Shown here: piece after piece, positions 56,114 to 64,000 of the stretch
Position numbering within the stretch: position 1 is the first letter of the stretch
How the letters are laid out: each line of letters begins with the position of its first letter
Assembly: GCA_030167865.1 (NCBI GenBank)
Contig: JALAGF010000383.1
Coordinates: forward strand, 62,001-126,000
DNA: 64,000 nucleotides
Origin: Craspedostauros australis
Taxonomy: Eukaryota
Reading direction: 5' to 3'
Translations under genes and position numbers: made by a program
The notes under the pieces: model-generated
Told to the model about the DNA's origin: nothing
The model's database searches: none
What the model saw: the letters and a program-made list of their open reading frames with translations, nothing else

Positions 56114-58217
56114 ATGGTTGACAAGAAGGCAGAAGCGAAGAAGGAAGACAAGGGGGCTGCAGGCGCAGCCGACAACTCGCCATCGTCATCGGGAGACAGC
56201 AAGGAGGCATCGGCCGCCGCAAAGAAACTGCCTCCACTGATCGCCGCGTCCCGGCGTTTGGATGCGCAGCTCGGCGGTGGGTTGGCCGCGAAGGATAGAG
56301 CGCTGTACTCTTACATCAACCCAGTCAAGGTGCTGCGGCGATGGCTGGGCATGGCCTCTGGCGCATCCTCGAGCTGCGCCTTGGGTGATATCGCGAAGGC
56401 CGCTGAGAGCTTGCTGGACCCAGAAGGTCCCTGCAAGGCTGGCCGCAACTTGCTGCTCGGATTCGCAGCGCCGGAGAGCGACAAAGCCGAATCCATGGAG
56501 GTCGATGACGCAGCTCCTTCGAAGGATGGCGAAGCGGAGGCACCCGCTTTCCTGTCTCTGTCGTCGGCAAGAGAGATCGAGGGTTGGCTGATCAGCCTGG
56601 CAGTGCGCTTGCTCATCAAGGACAAGAAGTACAGCGAGGCCATGGAGCTGTCGCAGAAGGGAATCGCGATCACACACAAGCACATCCAGGCATCGTCAAG
56701 CCAGCTGACCGCCAAGAACGGATTCTCCGCGAACTCGCTGTTCCCAGGACTTGCCCGGCTGTACAGATACAGGTCGTTGGTGTCGGAACTGCTCAATGAC
56801 CCCAGTCTTGCCGCCGATCTCCGACAGGACTTGGTCAAGGCTCACAACATGGCCTGTCTTCGTCGTGATGTCGACTCCCAGTCGACGTTGCTGAATCTCA
56901 TGCTGAGGGACTACCTGTTGCATGACCAAGGTACGTGACATGGTGTTTATCACAACACGGAGATTTGCGTCGCGATGCCTTTCCCTCGCGTTGCAGCTAG
57001 GTCTCCATGCCTTCCATCTCGTGTGACATGAAACGATGCGATGTGTTGTGTTGTGACGATGTGGCGTGACATGACGGAACGCAAGTGTTTCCTCACTCCG
57101 CAGAATACCATCGTTAGTGATAGTATTCGGTTGAGTGCGGGTCCATCGTATTGTTAGATCAGAGATGCAAGCCATCGCCATGGATGCTCCGCTGCAGAAT
57201 GCGCCGATGAAAGAGATCTGAACCACATTTATATGGCCGGCTACGAAGAAACGAACAAACCTCACGAAGGTGGCCTCATGCACTCACTCGCTCACTCAAT
57301 CTCGCCGCTCCTTCCACTTTCCCGACCGCTCGACCGATCGCCCTGCTTTAACCGCTACGTTTCATTCCATTCCATTAAATTCCATTTCATACCCAGTCGA
57401 ACAAGCGCACAAGCTCCTGACGAATTCGACCTTCCCCGACTCCGCGTCGAACAATCAGCTCTGCCGTTACCTGTACAACAGCGGCCGAATCCACGCGCTG
57501 AGACTCGAGTACACCAAAGCATTCTCCAGCCTCTCCCAGTCGTTGCGGAAGGCGCCCAGCAACACAGGGTTGGGATTCCGCATCGAAGTGCAGCGCTTGC
57601 TGATTGTGGTGCAATTGCTGATGGGCGAGATCCCGGATCGGCATCTTTTCTTCACCGAAGGCATGAAAACAGAGCTGGCTCCGTACCTTCGTATCACGCA
57701 GGCTGTTCGCAAGGGAGACCTGAAGACGTTCACGGCTGTCGTGTCTGAAAATGCTCCTCGCCTTCAAAAGGACCGCACTTACACGCTCATCTCGCGTCTT
57801 GCTCATCAGGTCGTGAAGGCAGGATTGCGCAAGCTGCACATCAGCTATTCCCGAATGTCGTTGCAGGACGTTGCCGATCGTTTGGGACTTCCTTCTGCAA
57901 CTTCGGCTGAATTTGTGGTGGCAAAGGCCGTTCGCGACGGTGTGCTGGATGCCACGATCCACCACGAGGAGGGGTACATGCAGAGCCACGACCTCGTCGA
58001 TGTCTACGCCACGCAGGAACCGGCAGAGGCATTCCACAGACGTATCGCGTACTGCTTGACAACGCACAACGACGCCGTCCGAGCCATGCGCTATCCGCCA
58101 GATGAGTACAAGCGTCAGCTGGAGGCCAGCCGCGGGAACCGTGGCAAGAGCAGCGACGACAAGACCGACGAGGAGAAGGCAAGAGAATTAGAGGATGAGA
58201 TGGATGATGACTACTAA
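56114..58217 (+). CDS. RPN3: 26S proteasome regulatory subunit RPN3 (PSMD3), 2 exons
   Basis: Exons 56114-56930 and 57397-58217, intron gtacgt..ccag, phase 1. Motifs: STLLNLMLRDYL, SNNQLCRYLYNSGRIHALRLEY, VVQLLMGEIPDR, ISYSRMSL, AEFVVAKAVRDGV, DVYATQEPAEAFHRRI and AVRAMRYP. Confidence 0.96.
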
Positions 58218-58452: not shown

Positions 58453-59562
58453 TCAAGTTTGTTCTCGATGGTAAATCCAGACGGGCGCCCCCCTCCAGGC
58501 ATTCTTTGTCCACGACATTTCCACATGCTCCATCTCCGGTTTTTGGAATCCCATCCGGTTCTCTGTGTTACGCATACGAGTCTCCAAAGGTCCATTCCGA
58601 TACTGGTGGGCTGAATTTTCTGCGCATGGAATATTCTCAGCGTCACCAGCAAATTCACCACCGGGGTTGGGCACGCCTCGGAGCTGATTTGGGAATGGCC
58701 GAAGTGATGCGATGCACTTGAGGTTTGGACAATCACGCCAACCGTCCTCGCACAGTTTTTCCTCCAGCTGACGCAGAACGTCAGACGGGAAGCACAGCGA
58801 CGAAACGAAGAGATGTGTGGTTTGCGATAAATCTGCATCGACCAAATCGCCCTCCACAAATCCGATCGTCCTGTGCTTTGCATATTGGTGGCCTTCCAGG
58901 TTCGCGATGATGCTGTGAAATGAACGCAACTCCTCGCTGCGCCTCAGTCGACCCCATGCCTGCACCGCCTGCGCATGCCGGCTGGCAACGAGCTCGATAC
59001 CTCGGCTATCCCTCAAATGCGGTATCTCCAAGTACGCCTGGACCACCAGCTTTCCAACGCCAGATCCCATGTCCATAAAGTTGACTTCGTCAGATGCCGA
59101 CTGCGCATGAGATGAATAGAGTCCCATATGATGAAATAGCTGCCTGGCGCCGGTGGTCGTCACTTCACCGTACGTGAATCTAGTTTGGTGATCTCGGAAC
59201 GGATCGGAAAAAACTGATTCTGCAGAATAGGAAGACTCGTATTGGTCAGAGCGCGTTGCCAATCTGCTGTCGCATCCAGCGCCTGTGCCGCTCGCAGTGC
59301 CAGTACTACTTGCAGTTGTAGTGACAACGCCAGGAGCAGGGCCATCGATCCCATCGCCATACCCGGCATCGTCCACCCAGAATGGTTCGGCTCCATTTCC
59401 ACGTTGCGGTTGGAAGATGAGATCGATGCAACGTCGGGAGCGGTACACGTCCCAGCTCGATGGGATCGGTTCCGCGCAGGGTAGATGGGAATCAATCACG
59501 TCGGGCGGCAGAAGGATGATCGATCCCACAACCTGCGACAACCAACCGGAGAAGCATAGCAT
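58453..59562 (-). CDS. DOT1-like class I SAM-dependent methyltransferase, 369 aa
   Basis: TYGEVT, FMDMGSGVGKLV, GIELVASRH, FVEGDL, THLFVSSLCF and a terminal VEMSW, matching the compact DOT1-like pattern. Start uncertain. Confidence 0.8.
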   Translation of the reverse strand: MLCFSGWLSQVVGSIILLPPDVIDSHLPCAEPIPSSWDVYRSRRCIDLIFQPQRGNGAEPFWVDDAGYGDGIDGPAPGVVTTTASSTGTASGTGAGCDSRLATRSDQYESSYSAESVFSDPFRDHQTRFTYGEVTTTGARQLFHHMGLYSSHAQSASDEVNFMDMGSGVGKLVVQAYLEIPHLRDSRGIELVASRHAQAVQAWGRLRRSEELRSFHSIIANLEGHQYAKHRTIGFVEGDLVDADLSQTTHLFVSSLCFPSDVLRQLEEKLCEDGWRDCPNLKCIASLRPFPNQLRGVPNPGGEFAGDAENIPCAENSAHQYRNGPLETRMRNTENRMGFQKPEMEHVEMSWTKNAWRGAPVWIYHREQT

Positions 59563-60354
59563 GGGATTGTATCACCGTTGCTCTTCAGCTCTTCTGTTGC
59601 TCTGCTTTTCTCTCCTCTGCGAGTACTAGTGTGGACACTGTCTCTTCGTTCTTGCGTCGTTCTGCGTCACGTTGTGGGATGGCCTCCTTAGTATGTGACA
59701 TCTATGTATCCGATGTAAAGTATGGTATGATGCCATGGAAGTATAATAATATAGCACGACCTGGAGAGAAGGAAAGCTCGAACGATGCGGGCTCATCGGC
59801 AGAGCATGGTGTCATCATCGTATCTTCTGTGTGGGTGTCGGCACCAGATTGTCCAGCACCGAATGTGTCATCGTCGATGGTTTGATCGGACGAGTCATCC
59901 GCAACCCGAATATGCATCCGACAGACAGACTTCGCGCCAAAACGCCTCCGCGAACGTGTTGGGACTTCGCTGGCTCGAATTCTGGCGATTGTCTCGCGAA
60001 CCAAAACAGAAGCGTTTCACACAAAAACGCTGCGCCCACAAAACCACGCTCTTCCGAGAAAGCTTGTTGTCAAAGTTCATGACAAAGCATCGCCAACGAG
60101 ATGACAACCAACCAGATACGCAAACCACATCAAATCACATTTCTCCATTCTACTCTCCTGCACTCTCCAAAGTGGAGCCAACTGAACTCCATTCATCTCA
60201 ATTCCACTCCGCAAAGACAATACCGAATACAACAACATCCCCAAGAGGCAACTTCCTGATCCAAATCACCGCCGTTCAGAGGATCACCCATACAGTTACC
60301 TGAGCGTACTATACACCCTGCTGCTGAATTCCAATTGAAATCGAGTCTGGGACA

Positions 60355-63300
60355 ATGAAGTTCTGCTACTGTGTGGTGCACGGGAGAGAACTGGGGATCT
60401 TCTTCTCATGGGATGAGACCAAGAAGCATGTGATTGGCTTCTCGAACGCCTCGTACCAAGGATGCGAGACGCTCTCCGAAGCCAAGGCGTACATGCGGCT
60501 GTGCGGGATGGTCCCACGAAAGGAGGTCAAGGCGGATCAAACGCCTGCCGCGGACGAAGGCTTGTTGTCGTCAAAGGGTTGGACGACGCGCATCCTTTAC
60601 GTTGATGCGGCACCCAGAAGCACCACGCGGGGGTCATCGTCGCCTTACTTTCAAGCCAAGCAGGACAACAAGCGAACGCATGAAGAAATCATCTCCATTT
60701 GTTCCTCCGATAAGGAAGATCAACCCAGCACAACCGCCACCAAAAGTCGTCGAAAGACCAATGGCGTTGCAACACGAGTGCAACCTCGCCGCGGTGCCAA
60801 GGCAACGCCGTGCGATGAGTCAAGCCATCCCAAGAATGAAGGTTGCGGTGCCACTGGCACAGCCACTGCTCGCATCTCTGCTAGTAACAGAAAGAGCGAA
60901 AGTGATTCTCCAACCATCAACAATCGCAGCAGCAGCAGCAGCAGTCCATGTGGCAAGTCAAAGAACAACAACTTTGCGAAGAATGAGGCGGATCGCCACC
61001 CCAGCAACGAATATGTCGACAACGATCTTTACCTCGACGACTACGACAATGATTATCATCACGAGCACGACCATGAGCATGACCATGGGCACCACGATGA
61101 TCATGACGATGAGGACGAACGACACGATGATCATGAAGACTACTGTGGCTACGAACAGGATGTCTACGAACAGGCTGAATACGAACGAGACTGCGACGAA
61201 CGACATGCTGAGGAGCAGCATGCGCAAGAACAGTATGACTACGAACAGGATGCCTACGAACATGAGGAGTACGAACGAGAATGCGATGAACGACGTGCCG
61301 AAGAGCAGGATGCCTACGAACAGGATGATTACAGACGACGGCGCGAAGAAGAGTACGCACTCGATCCTGTCCAACAACTCGCCGTAGACGCCGCCTTGGA
61401 GGGCAAGAACATTTTCCTCACTGGCCTTGCCGGCACAGGAAAGTCATTGGTGACGAAAATCATCGTTCAGAATGCACAAAGCCAGAATCGTCAAGTCGCC
61501 GTGGCTGCTCCCACTGGAGTCGCAGCCGTCAACCTCGGCTTGGGTGCGCAGACCCTGCATTCCCTTGCTGGTGTCCGTGTGCCGCAACGAGCTCGTGATT
61601 TCGGTAAGTTGCAGATGATTGTCGTGTTGTGTCATGGTGGGGATGGGATGCTTGGACAAATACATAGGAGGCCATGTTAGTTTTCTTCTTCACTGTCCCC
61701 CCTCCCCTATCGGAGGTGCATGCCATCTCGCTTTTCTTCGGTTCTTCGTCCAACGCATGCATGCATGTATACAAGCGAGCAGGTCAAGCAGAAGACGATG
61801 GAGAAGACAAACGACCGACAGAACGGAACGAGAGACAACAGAGCACCCGTGGATGCGTATCATTTGACCTTCGTTGACGCAGCTACTGTGTTCTCGAGAA
61901 GCACGTTGCCACTCAACTCTATGCTCTCCTCCACACGCTGCCATGCTCTGCTGGCAATAAGATGTGGCTCGCCTCCCCTCTTGGTTCTCACCTTCCGACT
62001 GTCAATTCTCTTCGTTTTCTGCCGTGATTTTCCGTGCTGTTGCTCGCGCTCATGCTTGCTTTGTTACATTTTGATACACCGTACCACACCAAACAATGCC
62101 ATGCCATGCCATATCATACCATGACGCATTCCACTTTCTCACACCGTCTACCAGGCACGATGCATGGCTGGGAGAATTCAAAGAAATGGAGGCAGATGGA
62201 AGTCTTGGTGATCGATGAGATTGGTATGGTGAAGGCCGACTTTCTCGACTTTCTGGATGTGACGGTGCGAAACATTCGTCACAGACCGCATGCTCCATTT
62301 GGTGGCATTCAACTGATCTTCGTCGGTGACTTCGCTCAGCTCGGTCCGGTGCCTGGATCGCTTTCTCTGCGTCGTGATCACGCTTACAAACCAGGGGAGG
62401 ATGGCGCAGATTGCTTCCTTGAAGTGCAGGATTGCACAGCGTACGCATTCCAAAGCGCGTGCTGGCGAGAAGCAAACTTCCACCACATCCGCCTGAACAA
62501 AGTGTTCCGCCAAGCCGACATGGATTTTGTGGCGGCGCTGACTGATTTGCGCGAGTCGAGGTCCGGATCCGATCGCGTCAGCCGGATGATCAAGGATTGC
62601 GCCAAGCCGCTGGCGAGAAGGAAGGACTTGAAAATCCCGGAGGGCATCGAGCCGACCATACTGTACTGCACCAACGCCAAGGTCGACAGACAGAATTCGG
62701 ATGCCCTTCGGTCACTGAATACCGAGAGACAAGTGTACAAGGCGGTGGATACCACCAGCGTGGACGACGAAGTCCGCCCAGGCTACGCGGATTCCATGAA
62801 GCGGACGCTCACGAAAGACAAGTTCTTCGAGCAGTGTCAGGCCTCCAAGCACTTGGAATTGAAGCTCGGTGCCCAGGTGATGCTGCTGCAGAACTTCAGC
62901 CAACTGGGTCTCGTCAATGGCAGCCGTGGCGTCGTCGAATCCTTCGAGCCTTGTCCCGTGGCGGTGGATGTGAGTGGAGAAGAGAATTTGATCCGCCCCG
63001 ACGATCACGAGAAGTTCGAAGGACGCATGTTCGAGAAGATCAAGATCGGGATGCAGCTCCGCTTCGATGACAAGGTGTGGACGGTGAAACGATTCAAGAA
63101 GTTCCCCCTCGTCAAATTTCTGAATGGACAGCAGCAGATCATGGTCCCTAGCAACTTCGAGCGGACCATGTACAGGAAGGGCGTGTGCCGCAGGACACAG
63201 ATTCCGTTGCGGCTGGCGTGGGCGTTGACGGTTCACAAGTCGCAGGGTTCGACATTGGATTTGGTCGTGGCGGATCTAAAGGGCTGCTTCTCTCCTGGTC

Positions 63301-64000
63301 AAGCGTACGTGGCGCTGAGCCGTGCCAAGTCGAAAGAAGGACTGCAGATCCGCAACTTCAGCAAGACCACGGTCCTGACAGACCGGCTGGTGGAAGGGTT
63401 CTATCAGGCCGTGGATGATGGCGGTATGGCGAAATTCCTCAAAGAACAAGCTGGCATCTGGTGGTTCCCTGTCCTGAAGCACGCGGACTGGCTCACCATG
63501 TTCCAACGTGCATCGAGCGCCGAAGGCAAGGCGAGCGCGAAACAGTTTTGCCACTGGCTCTCCAAATACAAGCCGAAGGCGAGCTACAAAGGTTGGTGTG
63601 GGTACAAACGCAGCTTCGTGTCGTATTCAGGCCCCTCCTCCAAGCCTGTCACTCCATCGCCCTTGAGGCAGAAGGCGTCCACAAGAACCACCCACGCAAC
63701 GACGACCGCAGGAGATGACAGTGACGGTTCTGATGGCTGGAAGCAGCTGAAGCTGACCTTCGGCGCAGGTGCGGGCAGTGCGTGCAAGTATGGAGGCAGC
63801 GGTGGCTTCGTCAAGGCTTCGACGCTGTTGCAGCGCAACGCCACTCACGCCAGCGGTTCAAAGAAGGCGACGAAGTCTGTAAGCGGCCAATCCTTGAAGA
63901 GCAAGACAGTCGACACGCAGAAAAAGAGGACGTTGCCGTCGTACGCTGACATCATGAGCATCCCCGACGACCTCAGCAGTCTCGATGGGTGTGGTGATGG
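60355..64000 (+). CDS. PIF1-family SF1B DNA helicase with N-terminal RNase H1 hybrid-binding (Cauli_VI-like) domain; 3'-truncated by the window edge
   Basis: Exon 1 is 60355-61603, intron 61604-62154 (gtaagt..ccag, phase 1), and exon 2 runs from 62155 with no stop to 64000 (missed by the ORF track). Motifs: IFLTGLAGTGKS, VAAPTGVAA, QTLHS, LVIDEIGMV, PFGGIQLIFVGDFAQLGPV, LNKVFRQ, LKLGAQVMLLQN..LVNGSRGVV, QIPLRLAWALTVHKSQGSTLD and GQAYVALSRA. Confidence 0.93.
61150..61329 (+). repeat. Coding tandem duplication with ~90-nt period (acidic YEQD repeats) in the PIF1 linker
   Basis: tacgaacaggatgtctacgaac... at 61150 and tacgaacaggatgcctacgaac... at 61240, encoding YEQDVYEQAEYERDCDERHAEEQ and YEQDAYEHEEYERECDERRAEEQ. 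Confidence 0.85.

What the first reader, a model, noticed from the sequence alone, without database searches (positions are those of the whole stretch)
60355..64000. PIF1 helicase fused to an RNase H1-type RNA:DNA hybrid-binding domain: a candidate dedicated R-loop helicase
Seen: the first 47 aa (60355-60495, KFCYCVVHGRELGIFFSWDETKKHVIGFSNASYQGCETLSEAKAYM) follow the RNase H1 N-terminal hybrid-binding domain / Cauli_VI pattern (Y-x-V-x-x-G-R-x-x-G-I-F-x-x-W-x-E...V-x-G-F...Y...EA..Y). They share an exon and frame with the PIF1 Walker A, and no RNase H catalytic domain follows. Known: this domain binds RNA:DNA hybrids, and yeast Pif1 unwinds RNA:DNA hybrids efficiently; human PIF1 and yeast Pif1/Rrm3 lack this domain. 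Inference: the domain may target the helicase to R-loops, primers or telomerase hybrids. Caveat: the conserved Trp is kept, but the usual basic KKF segment reads QGC, so binding may be weakened.
Basis: partly seen in the sequence, partly recalled or inferred. Interest (0 to 1): 0.72.

Follow-up and report, generated by a model that had tools for sequence, protein, structure and literature searches.

The report
PIF1 helicase with RNase H1-type hybrid-binding domain
This diatom-like gene really does encode a PIF1 DNA helicase with an RNase H1-type RNA:DNA hybrid-binding domain at its start, but the same fusion already sits, unstudied, in databases for many algae, other protists and giant-virus-like contigs.

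Summary
Residues 5-46 of the ORF starting at 60355 match Pfam Cauli_VI (PF01693) at 45.7 bits, against a cut-off of 21. An AlphaFold model of residues 1-60 (pLDDT 85.7) superposes best on the human RNase H1 hybrid-binding domain, HBD (3BSU, rmsd 0.8 Å). The HBD and the Walker A motif lie in one uninterrupted 416-codon exon. The inferred intron (61604-62154) restores a PIF1 core collinear with orthologues. No RNase H catalytic domain is present.

The fusion is not unique. N-terminal HBD plus PIF1 recurs in Nitzschia inconspicua, Picozoa, prasinophytes (including a transcript-derived ORF), Mesostigma, a fungus and an IMG/VR viral contig. On a helicase tree the window groups with diatoms and Picozoa (n=30, support 97), a clade that also shares a C-terminal Trp-rich motif.

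Function is inferred only. The conserved Trp is kept, but both lysines whose mutation abolishes binding by the human domain are Gln-Gly here. The second lysine is usually absent family-wide, and the first varies among the nearest relatives.

Five literature searches found no paper on this architecture. Verdict: a new member of a databased but uncharacterised subfamily. R-loop or primer targeting is plausible but untested.

The parts
60355..61603 (+). Exon 1: 416 codons plus 1 base, ending in phase 1. Start codon at 60355. Holds the HBD, the linker and the first part of the helicase.
   Evidence: Open frame from the TGA at 60325-60327. GT at 61604.
60367..60492 (+). RNase H1-type hybrid-binding domain (Cauli_VI), residues 5-46. 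W19 is kept. Q35-G36-C37 stand in place of K-K-F.
   Evidence: Pfam 45.7 bits. PDB sequence hits 1qhk and 3bsu. AF2 pLDDT 85.7 with strands 4-9, 14-16, 33-37 and helices 19-26, 40-49. Foldseek top hit 3bsu_A, TM 0.88 normalised by target, rmsd 0.8 over 45 columns.
60505..61344 (+). Acidic, low-complexity linker, residues 51-330. Composition D 34, E 33, S 26, R 24, H 17; net charge -29. No similarity to orthologues.
   Evidence: Composition. It does not align with orthologues. No Pfam family lies in it.
61063..61118 (+). His/Asp/Glu-rich codon repeat inside the linker: 12-bp unit x4.7, or 24-bp unit x2.3.
   Evidence: Tandem Repeats Finder.
61149..61332 (+). Tandem repeat inside the linker: 90-bp unit x2.0 at 82% match, also read as a 15-bp unit x11.9. 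It encodes Tyr/Glu/Gln/Asp-rich repeats.
   Evidence: Tandem Repeats Finder, score 256.
61345..61603 (+). First part of the PIF1 helicase core, including Walker A GLAGTGKS at 61423-61446.
   Evidence: PF05970 at residues 347-409. Aligned with orthologues.
61604..62154 (+). Intron of 551 bp, GT...AG, phase 1.
   Evidence: GT at 61604-61605 and AG at 62153-62154. The spliced product has no stop and is collinear, without a gap, with orthologues across the junction. No RNA evidence was obtained.
62155..63485 (+). Rest of the PIF1 helicase core in exon 2: Walker B (VIDEIG), the Pif1 signature region, the 2B/SH3 domain at 62832-62942 and the C-terminal RecA-like motifs.
   Evidence: PF05970 55.2 bits, PF21530 43.8 bits, UvrD_C_2 25.4 bits. 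Alignment.
63423..63620 (+). Clade-specific C-terminal motif, consensus AGLWW[YFH]P..(x)..W..MF...QF..W..Y.P.
   Evidence: Conserved from diatoms to Picozoa. Found in 40 of 410 held proteins. A, G, W, W, P, W, F, F, W are invariant in a 20-sequence alignment. No Pfam family. AF2 of the piece alone gave only pLDDT 64.
63621..64000 (+). Ser/Thr/Lys/Gly-rich tail. The ORF is still open at the window end, so the true C-terminus is unknown.
   Evidence: '3open' ORF 62028..63998.

Best explanation
This is a real, intact host gene of a diatom-like eukaryote that encodes a PIF1-family (SF1B) helicase. Reading from the N-terminus it has four parts:
- an RNase H1-type HBD;
- a roughly 280-residue acidic, repeat-bearing, probably disordered linker;
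- a complete PIF1 motor with its 2B domain;
- a clade-specific Trp-rich C-terminal motif.

It belongs to a conserved but uncharacterised HBD-PIF1 subfamily found in diatoms, Picozoa, green algae, a fungus and giant-virus-like contigs.

Proposed mechanism (inferred): the HBD docks on the minor groove of an RNA:DNA duplex such as an R-loop, an Okazaki primer or a telomerase RNA/telomere hybrid. The long flexible linker lets the motor load on adjacent single-stranded DNA and strip the RNA. Yeast Pif1 already prefers this substrate in vitro. The HBD therefore raises local concentration at hybrids rather than changing the chemistry.

Shown here: domain identities, fold, intact motifs, exon structure by collinearity, and conservation of the architecture.
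Inferred: hybrid binding by this HBD, tethering, and the cellular substrates.
For: - Domains: Cauli_VI 45.7 bits; PIF1 44.5 and 55.2 bits; Pif1_2B 43.8 bits.
- Fold: the AF2 model matches 3BSU, the human HBD bound to an RNA/DNA duplex, at rmsd 0.8 Å, followed by 1QHK.
- One ORF joins the HBD to Walker A. The splice junction is collinear with 17 relatives.
- Architecture conserved: 135 of the 410 proteins then held carry an HBD, and 125 of those also have the helicase N-part. The HBD lies upstream of the helicase in 123 of those 125. This set is enriched for HBDs, because the query included the HBD.
- In lists chosen by helicase similarity alone, the HBD occurs in 16 of 42 (one search list) and 7 of 80 (one search list) proteins that have at least 60 residues upstream of the core.
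- Named carriers: Nitzschia inconspicua P0300; Picomonas P0284; Pseudoscourfieldia marina P0413; MMETSP transcript ORF P0415, with HBD at 10-57 and core at 218-827; Mesostigma P0221.
- Tree: the window lies in a clade of 30 (support 97) in which 16 carry an HBD, on both sides of the deepest split.
- Key residues: Y5, W19 and Y34 are kept; W is present in 97 of 111 family HBDs.
- Yeast Pif1 unwinds RNA-DNA faster than DNA-DNA (abstract of PMC2034482). PIF1 helicases suppress R-loop damage at tRNA genes (title and start of abstract of PMC5413955, listing).
Against: - Q35-G36 replace the K59-K60 equivalents. The KK59/60AA change abolishes hybrid-specific foci of the human domain (PMC10639055 passages).
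- C37 replaces a Phe present in 98 of 111 family HBDs. L13 replaces a Pro present in 69 of 111.
- Among the 13 nearest relatives with an HBD, position 35 is K or R in 5, E in 4, Q in 2 and H in 1; the 13th (P0306) was not assigned. The canonical basic clamp is therefore not conserved in this clade.
- Net charge of the domain is 0, and the family median is +1. By my own count of the rows printed, the aligned human and yeast stretches are +6 and +3.
- The Cauli_VI fold is also described as binding double-stranded RNA (recalled, not checked here).
- 14 of the 30 clade members show no HBD. Several of these look like truncated gene models, but real losses cannot be excluded.
- There is no transcript evidence for this locus, and no binding or unwinding data for any HBD-PIF1 protein.
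Confidence: 0.5

Rival explanations
1. The N-terminal domain keeps the HBD fold but serves another ligand, such as double-stranded RNA, another duplex form or a protein partner. In that case the protein is a PIF1 helicase with a general nucleic-acid or partner-recruitment module, not a hybrid-specific one.
For: Both lysines of the basic pair are missing, and position 35 is acidic in 4 of the 13 nearest HBD-bearing relatives. The family HBDs are nearly neutral, with median net charge +1. G or S replaces the second lysine in 91 of 111 family HBDs, which points to a family-specific binding surface.
Against: The aromatic positions Y5, W19 and Y34 are kept. The best structural match is the hybrid-bound human domain. 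The fusion partner is a helicase that already prefers RNA-DNA substrates, which makes hybrid recognition the more economical reading.
Confidence: 0.27
2. In this species the HBD is a decaying remnant. The subfamily's ancestral domain is retained in sequence but is no longer functional here, and the protein acts as an ordinary PIF1.
For: The window copy departs from the family consensus at several well-conserved columns: C6 for A (91 of 111), L13 for P (69 of 111), Q35 for K (72 of 111) and C37 for F (98 of 111). Related diatom copies look degenerate: Nitzschia sp. Nitz4 scores 17.0 bits, below the cut-off, and Pseudo-nitzschia carries an insertion and is missed by the profile.
Against: The domain still scores 45.7 bits, well above the cut-off, and folds confidently. 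The frame stays open through about 280 unconserved linker codons. The core residues G10, R11, G14, W19, G28, F29, A43 and Y46 are intact.
Confidence: 0.15
3. The fusion is an artefact: two neighbouring genes read as one, or the gene belongs to a Helitron or an integrated giant virus rather than to the host.
For: PIF1-like helicases are common in Helitrons and giant viruses. An HBD-PIF1-intein-UDG gene sits on an IMG/VR viral contig. No RNA-seq evidence for this locus could be obtained.
Against: The HBD and Walker A share one uninterrupted ORF, and the same order recurs in 123 of 125 proteins, including a transcript-derived ORF. There is no Helitron Rep domain, intein or UDG in the window product. 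The gene has a GT-AG intron, and its neighbours are ordinary host genes, Rpn3 and a DOT1-like methyltransferase. The closest relatives are diatom proteins at 52-56% identity.
Confidence: 0.03

Closest known systems
Uncharacterised HBD-PIF1 proteins in public databases: Nitzschia inconspicua (P0300, source name 'TPR domain protein' / 'ATP-dependent DNA helicase'), Picomonas judraskeda (P0284), Pseudoscourfieldia marina XRB12771.1 (P0413)
   Same: They share the order N-terminal Cauli_VI domain, variable linker, PIF1 core. The diatom and Picozoa members also share the C-terminal Trp-rich motif and sit in the same tree clade, support 97.
   Different: Helicase identity is only 53% to Nitzschia and 39% to the Picozoa cluster. 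The window's linker is much longer, about 280 residues, and is repeat-bearing. Its HBD has Q-G-C where most family members have K-G/S-F.
Saccharomyces cerevisiae Pif1/Rrm3 and human PIF1
   Same: Same helicase family, with PF05970 and the 2B domain. Yeast Pif1 prefers RNA-DNA substrates.
   Different: Those proteins are not known to carry an HBD; this is recalled and was not tested here. Their N-terminal regions differ. They were not in my tree.
Eukaryotic RNase H1 (HBD plus linker plus RNase H catalytic domain)
   Same: Same N-terminal HBD fold, followed by a flexible linker before the enzymatic domain.
   Different: The catalytic module here is a helicase, not a nuclease; no PF00075 match was found. 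The K59/K60 equivalents are missing.
Giant-virus-like HBD-PIF1-intein-UDG proteins (P0045, P0048 and others; viral contig L001)
   Same: The HBD sits at the very N-terminus, directly before a PIF1 core. One such gene lies on a 35-kb IMG/VR contig.
   Different: These have a short linker, an intein with a LAGLIDADG endonuclease inside the helicase, and a C-terminal uracil-DNA glycosylase. Helicase identity to the window is about 30%.
Caulimovirus P6/TAV (origin of the Pfam name Cauli_VI)
   Same: Same Pfam domain family.
   Different: It sits in an unrelated viral protein with no helicase. Only a search listing was seen (PMC7102451).

Membership tests
RNase H1 N-terminal hybrid-binding domain (Pfam Cauli_VI, PF01693) | Profile match above the curated gathering score | tested here: met
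   45.7 bits against a cut-off of 21, covering profile positions 3-44 of 44.
RNase H1 N-terminal hybrid-binding domain (Pfam Cauli_VI, PF01693) | Three-stranded sheet plus two helices, superposable on solved HBDs | tested here: met
   AF2 pLDDT 85.7 with order E-E-H-E-H. Foldseek ranks 1-5 are 3bsu chains (TM by target 0.86-0.89, rmsd 0.8-1.2 Å) and rank 6 is 1qhk. Foldseek E is only 2.7e-3 because the domain is short.
RNase H1 N-terminal hybrid-binding domain (Pfam Cauli_VI, PF01693) | Conserved Trp (human W43) needed for hybrid binding | tested here: met
   W19 aligns with it. The role of W43 comes from passages of PMC10639055 and PMC6868509.
RNase H1 N-terminal hybrid-binding domain (Pfam Cauli_VI, PF01693) | Basic pair (human K59, K60) needed for hybrid binding | tested here: not met
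   Q35-G36 align with K-K. Across the family, position 35 is K in 72 and R in 7 of 111, and position 36 is G or S in 91 and K in 12 of 111.
RNase H1 N-terminal hybrid-binding domain (Pfam Cauli_VI, PF01693) | Preferential binding of RNA:DNA duplex | not testable with these tools
   Needs binding assays.
PIF1 family helicase (SF1B) | PF05970 and the Pif1 2B domain above their cut-offs | tested here: met
   PF05970 44.5 and 55.2 bits (cut-off 25.9). PF21530 43.8 bits (cut-off 23.9).
PIF1 family helicase (SF1B) | Intact ATPase and helicase motifs (Walker A, Walker B, later motifs) | tested here: met
   GLAGTGKS, VIDEIG, PFGGIQL..GDFAQL, HKSQG and YVALSRA align with the same motifs in 17 relatives. 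The motif names are recalled.
PIF1 family helicase (SF1B) | 5'-3' DNA unwinding activity | not testable with these tools
   Needs enzymology.
RNase H1 (the enzyme) | RNase H catalytic domain | tested here: not met
   No RNase H family at E<=1 in either exon product, and none in the precomputed Pfam lists of full-length orthologues such as P0300. The window ends before the stop codon.
HBD-PIF1 subfamily, diatom/Picozoa clade | HBD upstream of the helicase, the C-terminal Trp-rich motif, and placement in the clade | tested here: met
   HBD order. The motif is found in 40 of 410 held proteins, including the window's relatives. The clade has n=30 with FastTree support 97.
Helitron RepHel | Rep/Helitron_like_N domain next to the PIF1-like helicase | tested here: not met
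   No PF14214 in the window product. The Helitron-type fish and mollusc hits fall outside the window's clade and were used as the outgroup.

The most novel reading that the evidence does not exclude
HBD-PIF1 is an old subfamily, spread across eukaryotic supergroups and shared with giant viruses, of helicases dedicated to displacing RNA from RNA:DNA hybrids. Its HBD variant has one lysine or none in place of the KK clamp, which would give a weak, transient tether suited to a moving motor. In diatoms and Picozoa it would work together with the unexplained C-terminal Trp-rich motif. This would be a non-nucleolytic counterpart of RNase H1 in these lineages.
Probability: 0.3. Interest if true: 0.7.

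Novelty: new member of a known kind. Interest (0 to 1): 0.48.

Why it matters
Both domains are textbook modules, and PIF1 helicases are already linked to RNA:DNA hybrids. A natural, conserved fusion of the two is direct evolutionary evidence that hybrid recognition and PIF1 unwinding are selected to act together.

The subfamily is widespread in ecologically important algae and in giant-virus-like contigs, yet my searches found no paper on it. It offers a ready-made test of how an HBD lacking the canonical lysine pair recognises its ligand, and of what a hybrid-targeted helicase does that RNase H1 does not.

For this window alone the gain is modest: a well-supported annotation, and a correction of the idea that the fusion is unusual.

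Tried and rejected
- **Own genome:** none is held, so the gene could not be extended past 64000 and paralogues could not be counted.
- **Word-index search with the HBD:** residues 1-60 against longer proteins gave 4 candidates and none scored. This was uninformative, since later searches found many HBD-PIF1 proteins.
- **RNA evidence:** no RNA holder was listed for 60000-64000, and read laying was therefore not used.
- **Nowotny et al. 2008:** the paper on the HBD-hybrid structure is not held. Its residue roles are cited second-hand, or marked as recalled.
- **Literature on the fusion:** five searches found no paper describing an HBD-PIF1 protein. The one PF01693-with-Helitron paper (PMC4289320, passages read) concerns a separate captured gene, not a fusion.
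- **C-terminal motif:** folded alone it gave pLDDT 64, too low for a meaningful fold search, so none was run.
- **Earlier findings of this scan:** nothing was returned.
- **Helitron, viral insertion or mis-joined genes:** considered and rejected; see the third rival explanation.
- **Mitochondrial targeting:** not supported. Only 3-4 residues precede the HBD, leaving no room for a presequence, though an upstream exon cannot be excluded.
- **Complex prediction:** not used, because no protein-protein claim is made.
Full report
**1. Observation**

The + strand frame opens after a TGA at 60325-60327, and its first ATG is at 60355.

- Pfam hmmscan places Cauli_VI (PF01693, 'Ribonuclease H1 N-terminal domain') on residues 5-46, covering profile positions 3-44 of 44. 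The score is 45.7 bits (E 7.6e-12) for the first 60 residues alone and 41.1 bits inside the 416-residue exon product, against a curated cut-off of 21.
- A sequence search of the PDB returned 5 distinct sequences at E<=10. The top three are RNase H1 HBDs: yeast 1qhk at 2.9e-5, human 3bsu at 5.2e-4 and 6vrd at 8.1e-3.
- An AlphaFold2 model of residues 1-60, built with a 25-row alignment (A1), has mean pLDDT 85.7 and the order strand-strand-helix-strand-helix.
- Foldseek against the PDB ranks five chains of 3BSU first. 3BSU is the human HBD bound to a 12-mer RNA/DNA duplex. The TM-score normalised by target is 0.86-0.89 and the rmsd is 0.8-1.2 Å over 45-47 columns. 1QHK follows, and everything after it has E>5.

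**2. Gene model**

- Exon 1 runs 60355-61603 and is one open frame holding both the HBD and the Walker A motif GLAGTGKS (61423-61446).
- A GT at 61604 and an AG at 62153-62154 define a 551-bp phase-1 intron.
- The spliced product has no stop through the window end, giving 1031 residues. Across the junction it is collinear, without a gap, with 17 relatives.
- Pfam finds PIF1 (PF05970) in both exon products at 44.5 and 55.2 bits (cut-off 25.9). It also finds the Pif1 2B domain (PF21530) at 43.8 bits and a sub-threshold UvrD_C_2 match.
- Walker A, Walker B and the later helicase motifs are intact.
- No RNase H catalytic family, Helitron Rep domain, intein or UDG is present.
- The ORF is still open at 64000, so the C-terminus is unknown.
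- The own genome is not held and no RNA run was listed. The intron and the 5' end therefore rest on sequence logic and collinearity, not on transcripts.

**3. The linker**

Residues 51-330 between the HBD and the helicase are acidic and low in complexity: D 34, E 33, S 26, R 24, H 17, net charge -29. The segment contains a His/Asp codon repeat at 61063-61118 and a 90-bp repeat (x2.0) at 61149-61332. It does not align with orthologues. The frame nevertheless stays open through it.

**4. Relatives**

The closest helicase relatives are raphid pennate diatoms at 52-56% identity: Cylindrotheca fusiformis, C. closterium and Nitzschia inconspicua (4276 proteins at E<=1e-3 among 8000 scored candidates, 120 listed). 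No listed protein exceeds 64% identity, so this species' protein appears absent from the collection.

The fusion is not peculiar to this gene.

- Precomputed Pfam labels show PF01693 together with PF05970 in 14 of the 120 listed 'near'-length hits and 9 of the 120 listed 'longer' hits.
- A full HMMER scan of 1.84 billion cluster representatives with exon 1 gave 3737 hits at E<=1e-3.
- Among the 269 proteins then held, 87 matched both the HBD and the helicase N-part.
- With a profile built from those HBDs, 135 of 410 held proteins have an HBD. Of these, 125 also have the helicase N-part, and the HBD lies upstream of it in 123 of the 125. This set is enriched for HBDs, because the query contained the HBD.
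- Less biased tallies come from lists chosen by helicase similarity alone. Among proteins with at least 60 residues upstream of the core, 16 of 42 (one search list) and 7 of 80 (one search list) carry the HBD.
- Pfam rescans confirmed the positions in examples: P0015 has HBD 13-55 and PIF1 from 535, plus a GRF zinc finger; P0045 and P0048 have HBD 3-47 and PIF1 from about 61.
- The ESM Atlas holds a 75-member cluster in which PF01693 and PF05970 are each on 100% of members (score 0.88, a lead only).

**5. Who has it**

Named carriers:
- Nitzschia inconspicua P0300 (HBD 23-72, core 207-735).
- Picomonas judraskeda P0284, a member of the Picozoa (HBD 6-55).
- Pseudoscourfieldia marina P0413 (HBD 10-57).
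- MMETSP transcript-derived ORF P0415 in the same 90% cluster (HBD 10-57, core 218-827). This shows the two domains on one transcript in a relative.
- Mesostigma viride P0221, with two tandem HBDs.
- Stemphylium lycopersici P0081 and P0100, where the HBD is internal, at 709-752 and 740-783, in models that also contain an RRN9 domain.

A separate type, HBD-PIF1-intein/LAGLIDADG-UDG (P0045, P0048 and others), has a 78%-identical copy on a 35-kb IMG/VR contig (L001).

Some diatom copies are weak or lacking. Nitzschia sp. Nitz4 scores 17.0 bits, below the cut-off. Pseudo-nitzschia multistriata carries an insertion in the domain and is missed by my profile. The Cylindrotheca models start only 45-69 residues before the core.

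**6. Tree**

I extracted helicase cores covering the window's core from before position 40 to beyond position 480. This gave 262 proteins. Two with cores longer than 1100 residues were dropped, and all proteins with incomplete cores were left out. The final set was 261 rows including the window, with 448 kept columns, built with FastTree.

- Rooted on the Helitron-type fish and mollusc sequences, the window sits in a clade of 30 (support 97). The clade contains the diatoms, the Picozoa cluster and unnamed marine sequences.
- 16 of the 30 carry the HBD, and they lie on both sides of the clade's deepest split.
- The enclosing clade of 78 (support 97) has 23 carriers, including early branches of the sister group. 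One of these is P0151, the prasinophyte cluster.
- The HBD label changes 37 times on the whole tree. This figure is inflated. Several non-carriers are 90%-cluster mates or sisters of carriers (P0285 with P0143, P0279 with P0137, P0301 with P0302, P0295 with P0150). P0297 retains only the C-terminal half of the domain. These patterns point to truncated or mis-modelled N-termini.

I therefore read the HBD as ancestral to the window's clade. I do not claim a number of origins. FastTree supports should be trusted less than a careful search.

**7. A second clade signature**

Directly after the helicase, at 63423-63620, lies a motif with consensus AGLWW[YFH]P...W..MF...QF..W..Y.P. It is conserved from diatoms to Picozoa. 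It is found in 40 of 410 held proteins; those that are in the tree lie in the window's clade or immediately beside it. Nine positions are invariant in a 20-row alignment. Pfam has no family for it. Folded alone it is helical but of low confidence, pLDDT 64.

**8. Does the HBD still bind hybrids?**

In the alignments W19 faces the Trp, and Q35-G36-C37 face the K-K-F of the human and yeast domains. W43A and KK59/60AA are the substitutions used to abolish hybrid binding of the human domain (passages of PMC10639055; the W43A/K59A/K60A non-binding mutant in PMC6868509). Both papers cite Nowotny et al. 2008, which I could not read.

In the 111 HBD segments from helicase-bearing proteins:

| Window residue | Family composition at that position |
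|---|---|
| Y5 | Y in 101 |
| W19 | W in 97 |
| Q35 | K in 72, R in 7, Q in 16, E in 7 |
| G36 | G in 59, S in 32, K in 12 |
| C37 | F in 98, C in 3 |

Loss of the second lysine is thus a family trait. Loss of the first lysine and of the Phe is a minority state shared by the window. Among the 13 nearest HBD-bearing relatives, position 35 is K or R in 5, E in 4, Q in 2 and H in 1; the 13th (P0306) was not assigned.

Net charge of the domain is 0, with a family median of +1 and a range of -5 to +7. By my own count of the rows printed, the aligned human and yeast stretches are +6 and +3. The fold and the aromatic positions argue for a working nucleic-acid binder. The missing basic clamp argues for weaker or altered binding.

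**9. Mechanism**

Yeast Pif1 unwinds RNA-DNA faster than DNA-DNA, and that preference is not explained by preferential binding (abstract of PMC2034482). PIF1 helicases suppress R-loop-linked damage at tRNA genes (title and start of abstract of PMC5413955, seen in the listing).

The simplest model is that the HBD supplies the missing binding preference. It docks on a hybrid duplex, and the long acidic linker lets the motor load on adjacent single-stranded DNA and strip the RNA. Candidate substrates are R-loops, Okazaki primers and telomerase RNA-telomere hybrids, and nothing here discriminates among them.

- Shown: domain identity, fold, intact motifs and conserved architecture.
- Inferred: hybrid binding, tethering and substrates.

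I put this model at about 0.5, an HBD-fold module with another ligand at about 0.27, a decaying remnant in this species at about 0.15, and an artefact or mobile-element origin at about 0.03.

**10. Novelty**

Five literature searches found no paper describing an HBD-PIF1 protein. The Pleurotus Helitron paper that mentions PF01693 concerns a separately captured gene (passages). The architecture is, however, already present and automatically labelled in public protein collections.

The window's gene is therefore a new member of a databased but uncharacterised subfamily, not a new kind of system. The family as a whole deserves a biochemical look. The single locus is of moderate interest.

**11. 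Neighbours**

Upstream lie the C-terminal part of a proteasome Rpn3/PSMD3 gene (57222-58217, +) and a DOT1-like methyltransferase ORF (58453-59571, -). These are ordinary host genes, which also argues against a viral or transposon island.

Noticed in passing
window 63423-63620: A conserved Trp-rich motif sits directly after the PIF1 core, consensus AGLWW[YFH]P..W..MF...QF..W..Y.P. It is shared by diatom, Picozoa and unnamed marine relatives, has no Pfam family, and is helical but of low confidence when folded alone.
   Followed up: partly
window 61063-61118 and 61149-61332: In-frame tandem repeats in the linker: a His/Asp-rich 12/24-bp unit, and a 90-bp unit x2 that also reads as a 15-bp unit x11.9. 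They suggest recent expansion of the acidic linker.
   Followed up: partly
L001:3001-5487 (IMG/VR contig, 35 kb): A giant-virus-like gene 78% identical to P0048. Its architecture is HBD, then PIF1 interrupted by an intein with a LAGLIDADG endonuclease, then a C-terminal uracil-DNA glycosylase.
   Followed up: partly
P0221 / P0434 (Mesostigma viride): Two tandem HBDs (5-51 and 109-155) precede a PIF1 core.
   Followed up: partly
P0015 / P0431 (unnamed, 1212 aa): HBD (13-55) plus PIF1 plus a C-terminal GRF zinc finger (1168-1210), which is another nucleic-acid-binding add-on.
   Followed up: no
P0137, P0143 (Picozoa cluster), C-terminal tails: A Cys-rich segment (C..C...CC..C pattern) is shared by the two Picozoa-type clusters downstream of the Trp-rich motif. 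It may be a zinc-binding module. The window ends before any equivalent could be seen.
   Followed up: no
window 57222-58217 (+): An ORF with PSMD3 TPR, PCI and Rpn3_C domains: the C-terminal part of a proteasome Rpn3 gene.
   Followed up: partly
window 58453-59571 (-): A 372-codon ORF with a DOT1 histone methyltransferase match (37.3 bits), lying head-to-head with the helicase gene across about 780 bp.
   Followed up: partly
tree, subclade n=34: A large group of short (about 515-610 aa) PIF1 proteins without an HBD is nested beside HBD-bearing lineages. They are all unnamed metagenome sequences, and their origin (picoeukaryote or virus) is unknown.
   Followed up: no
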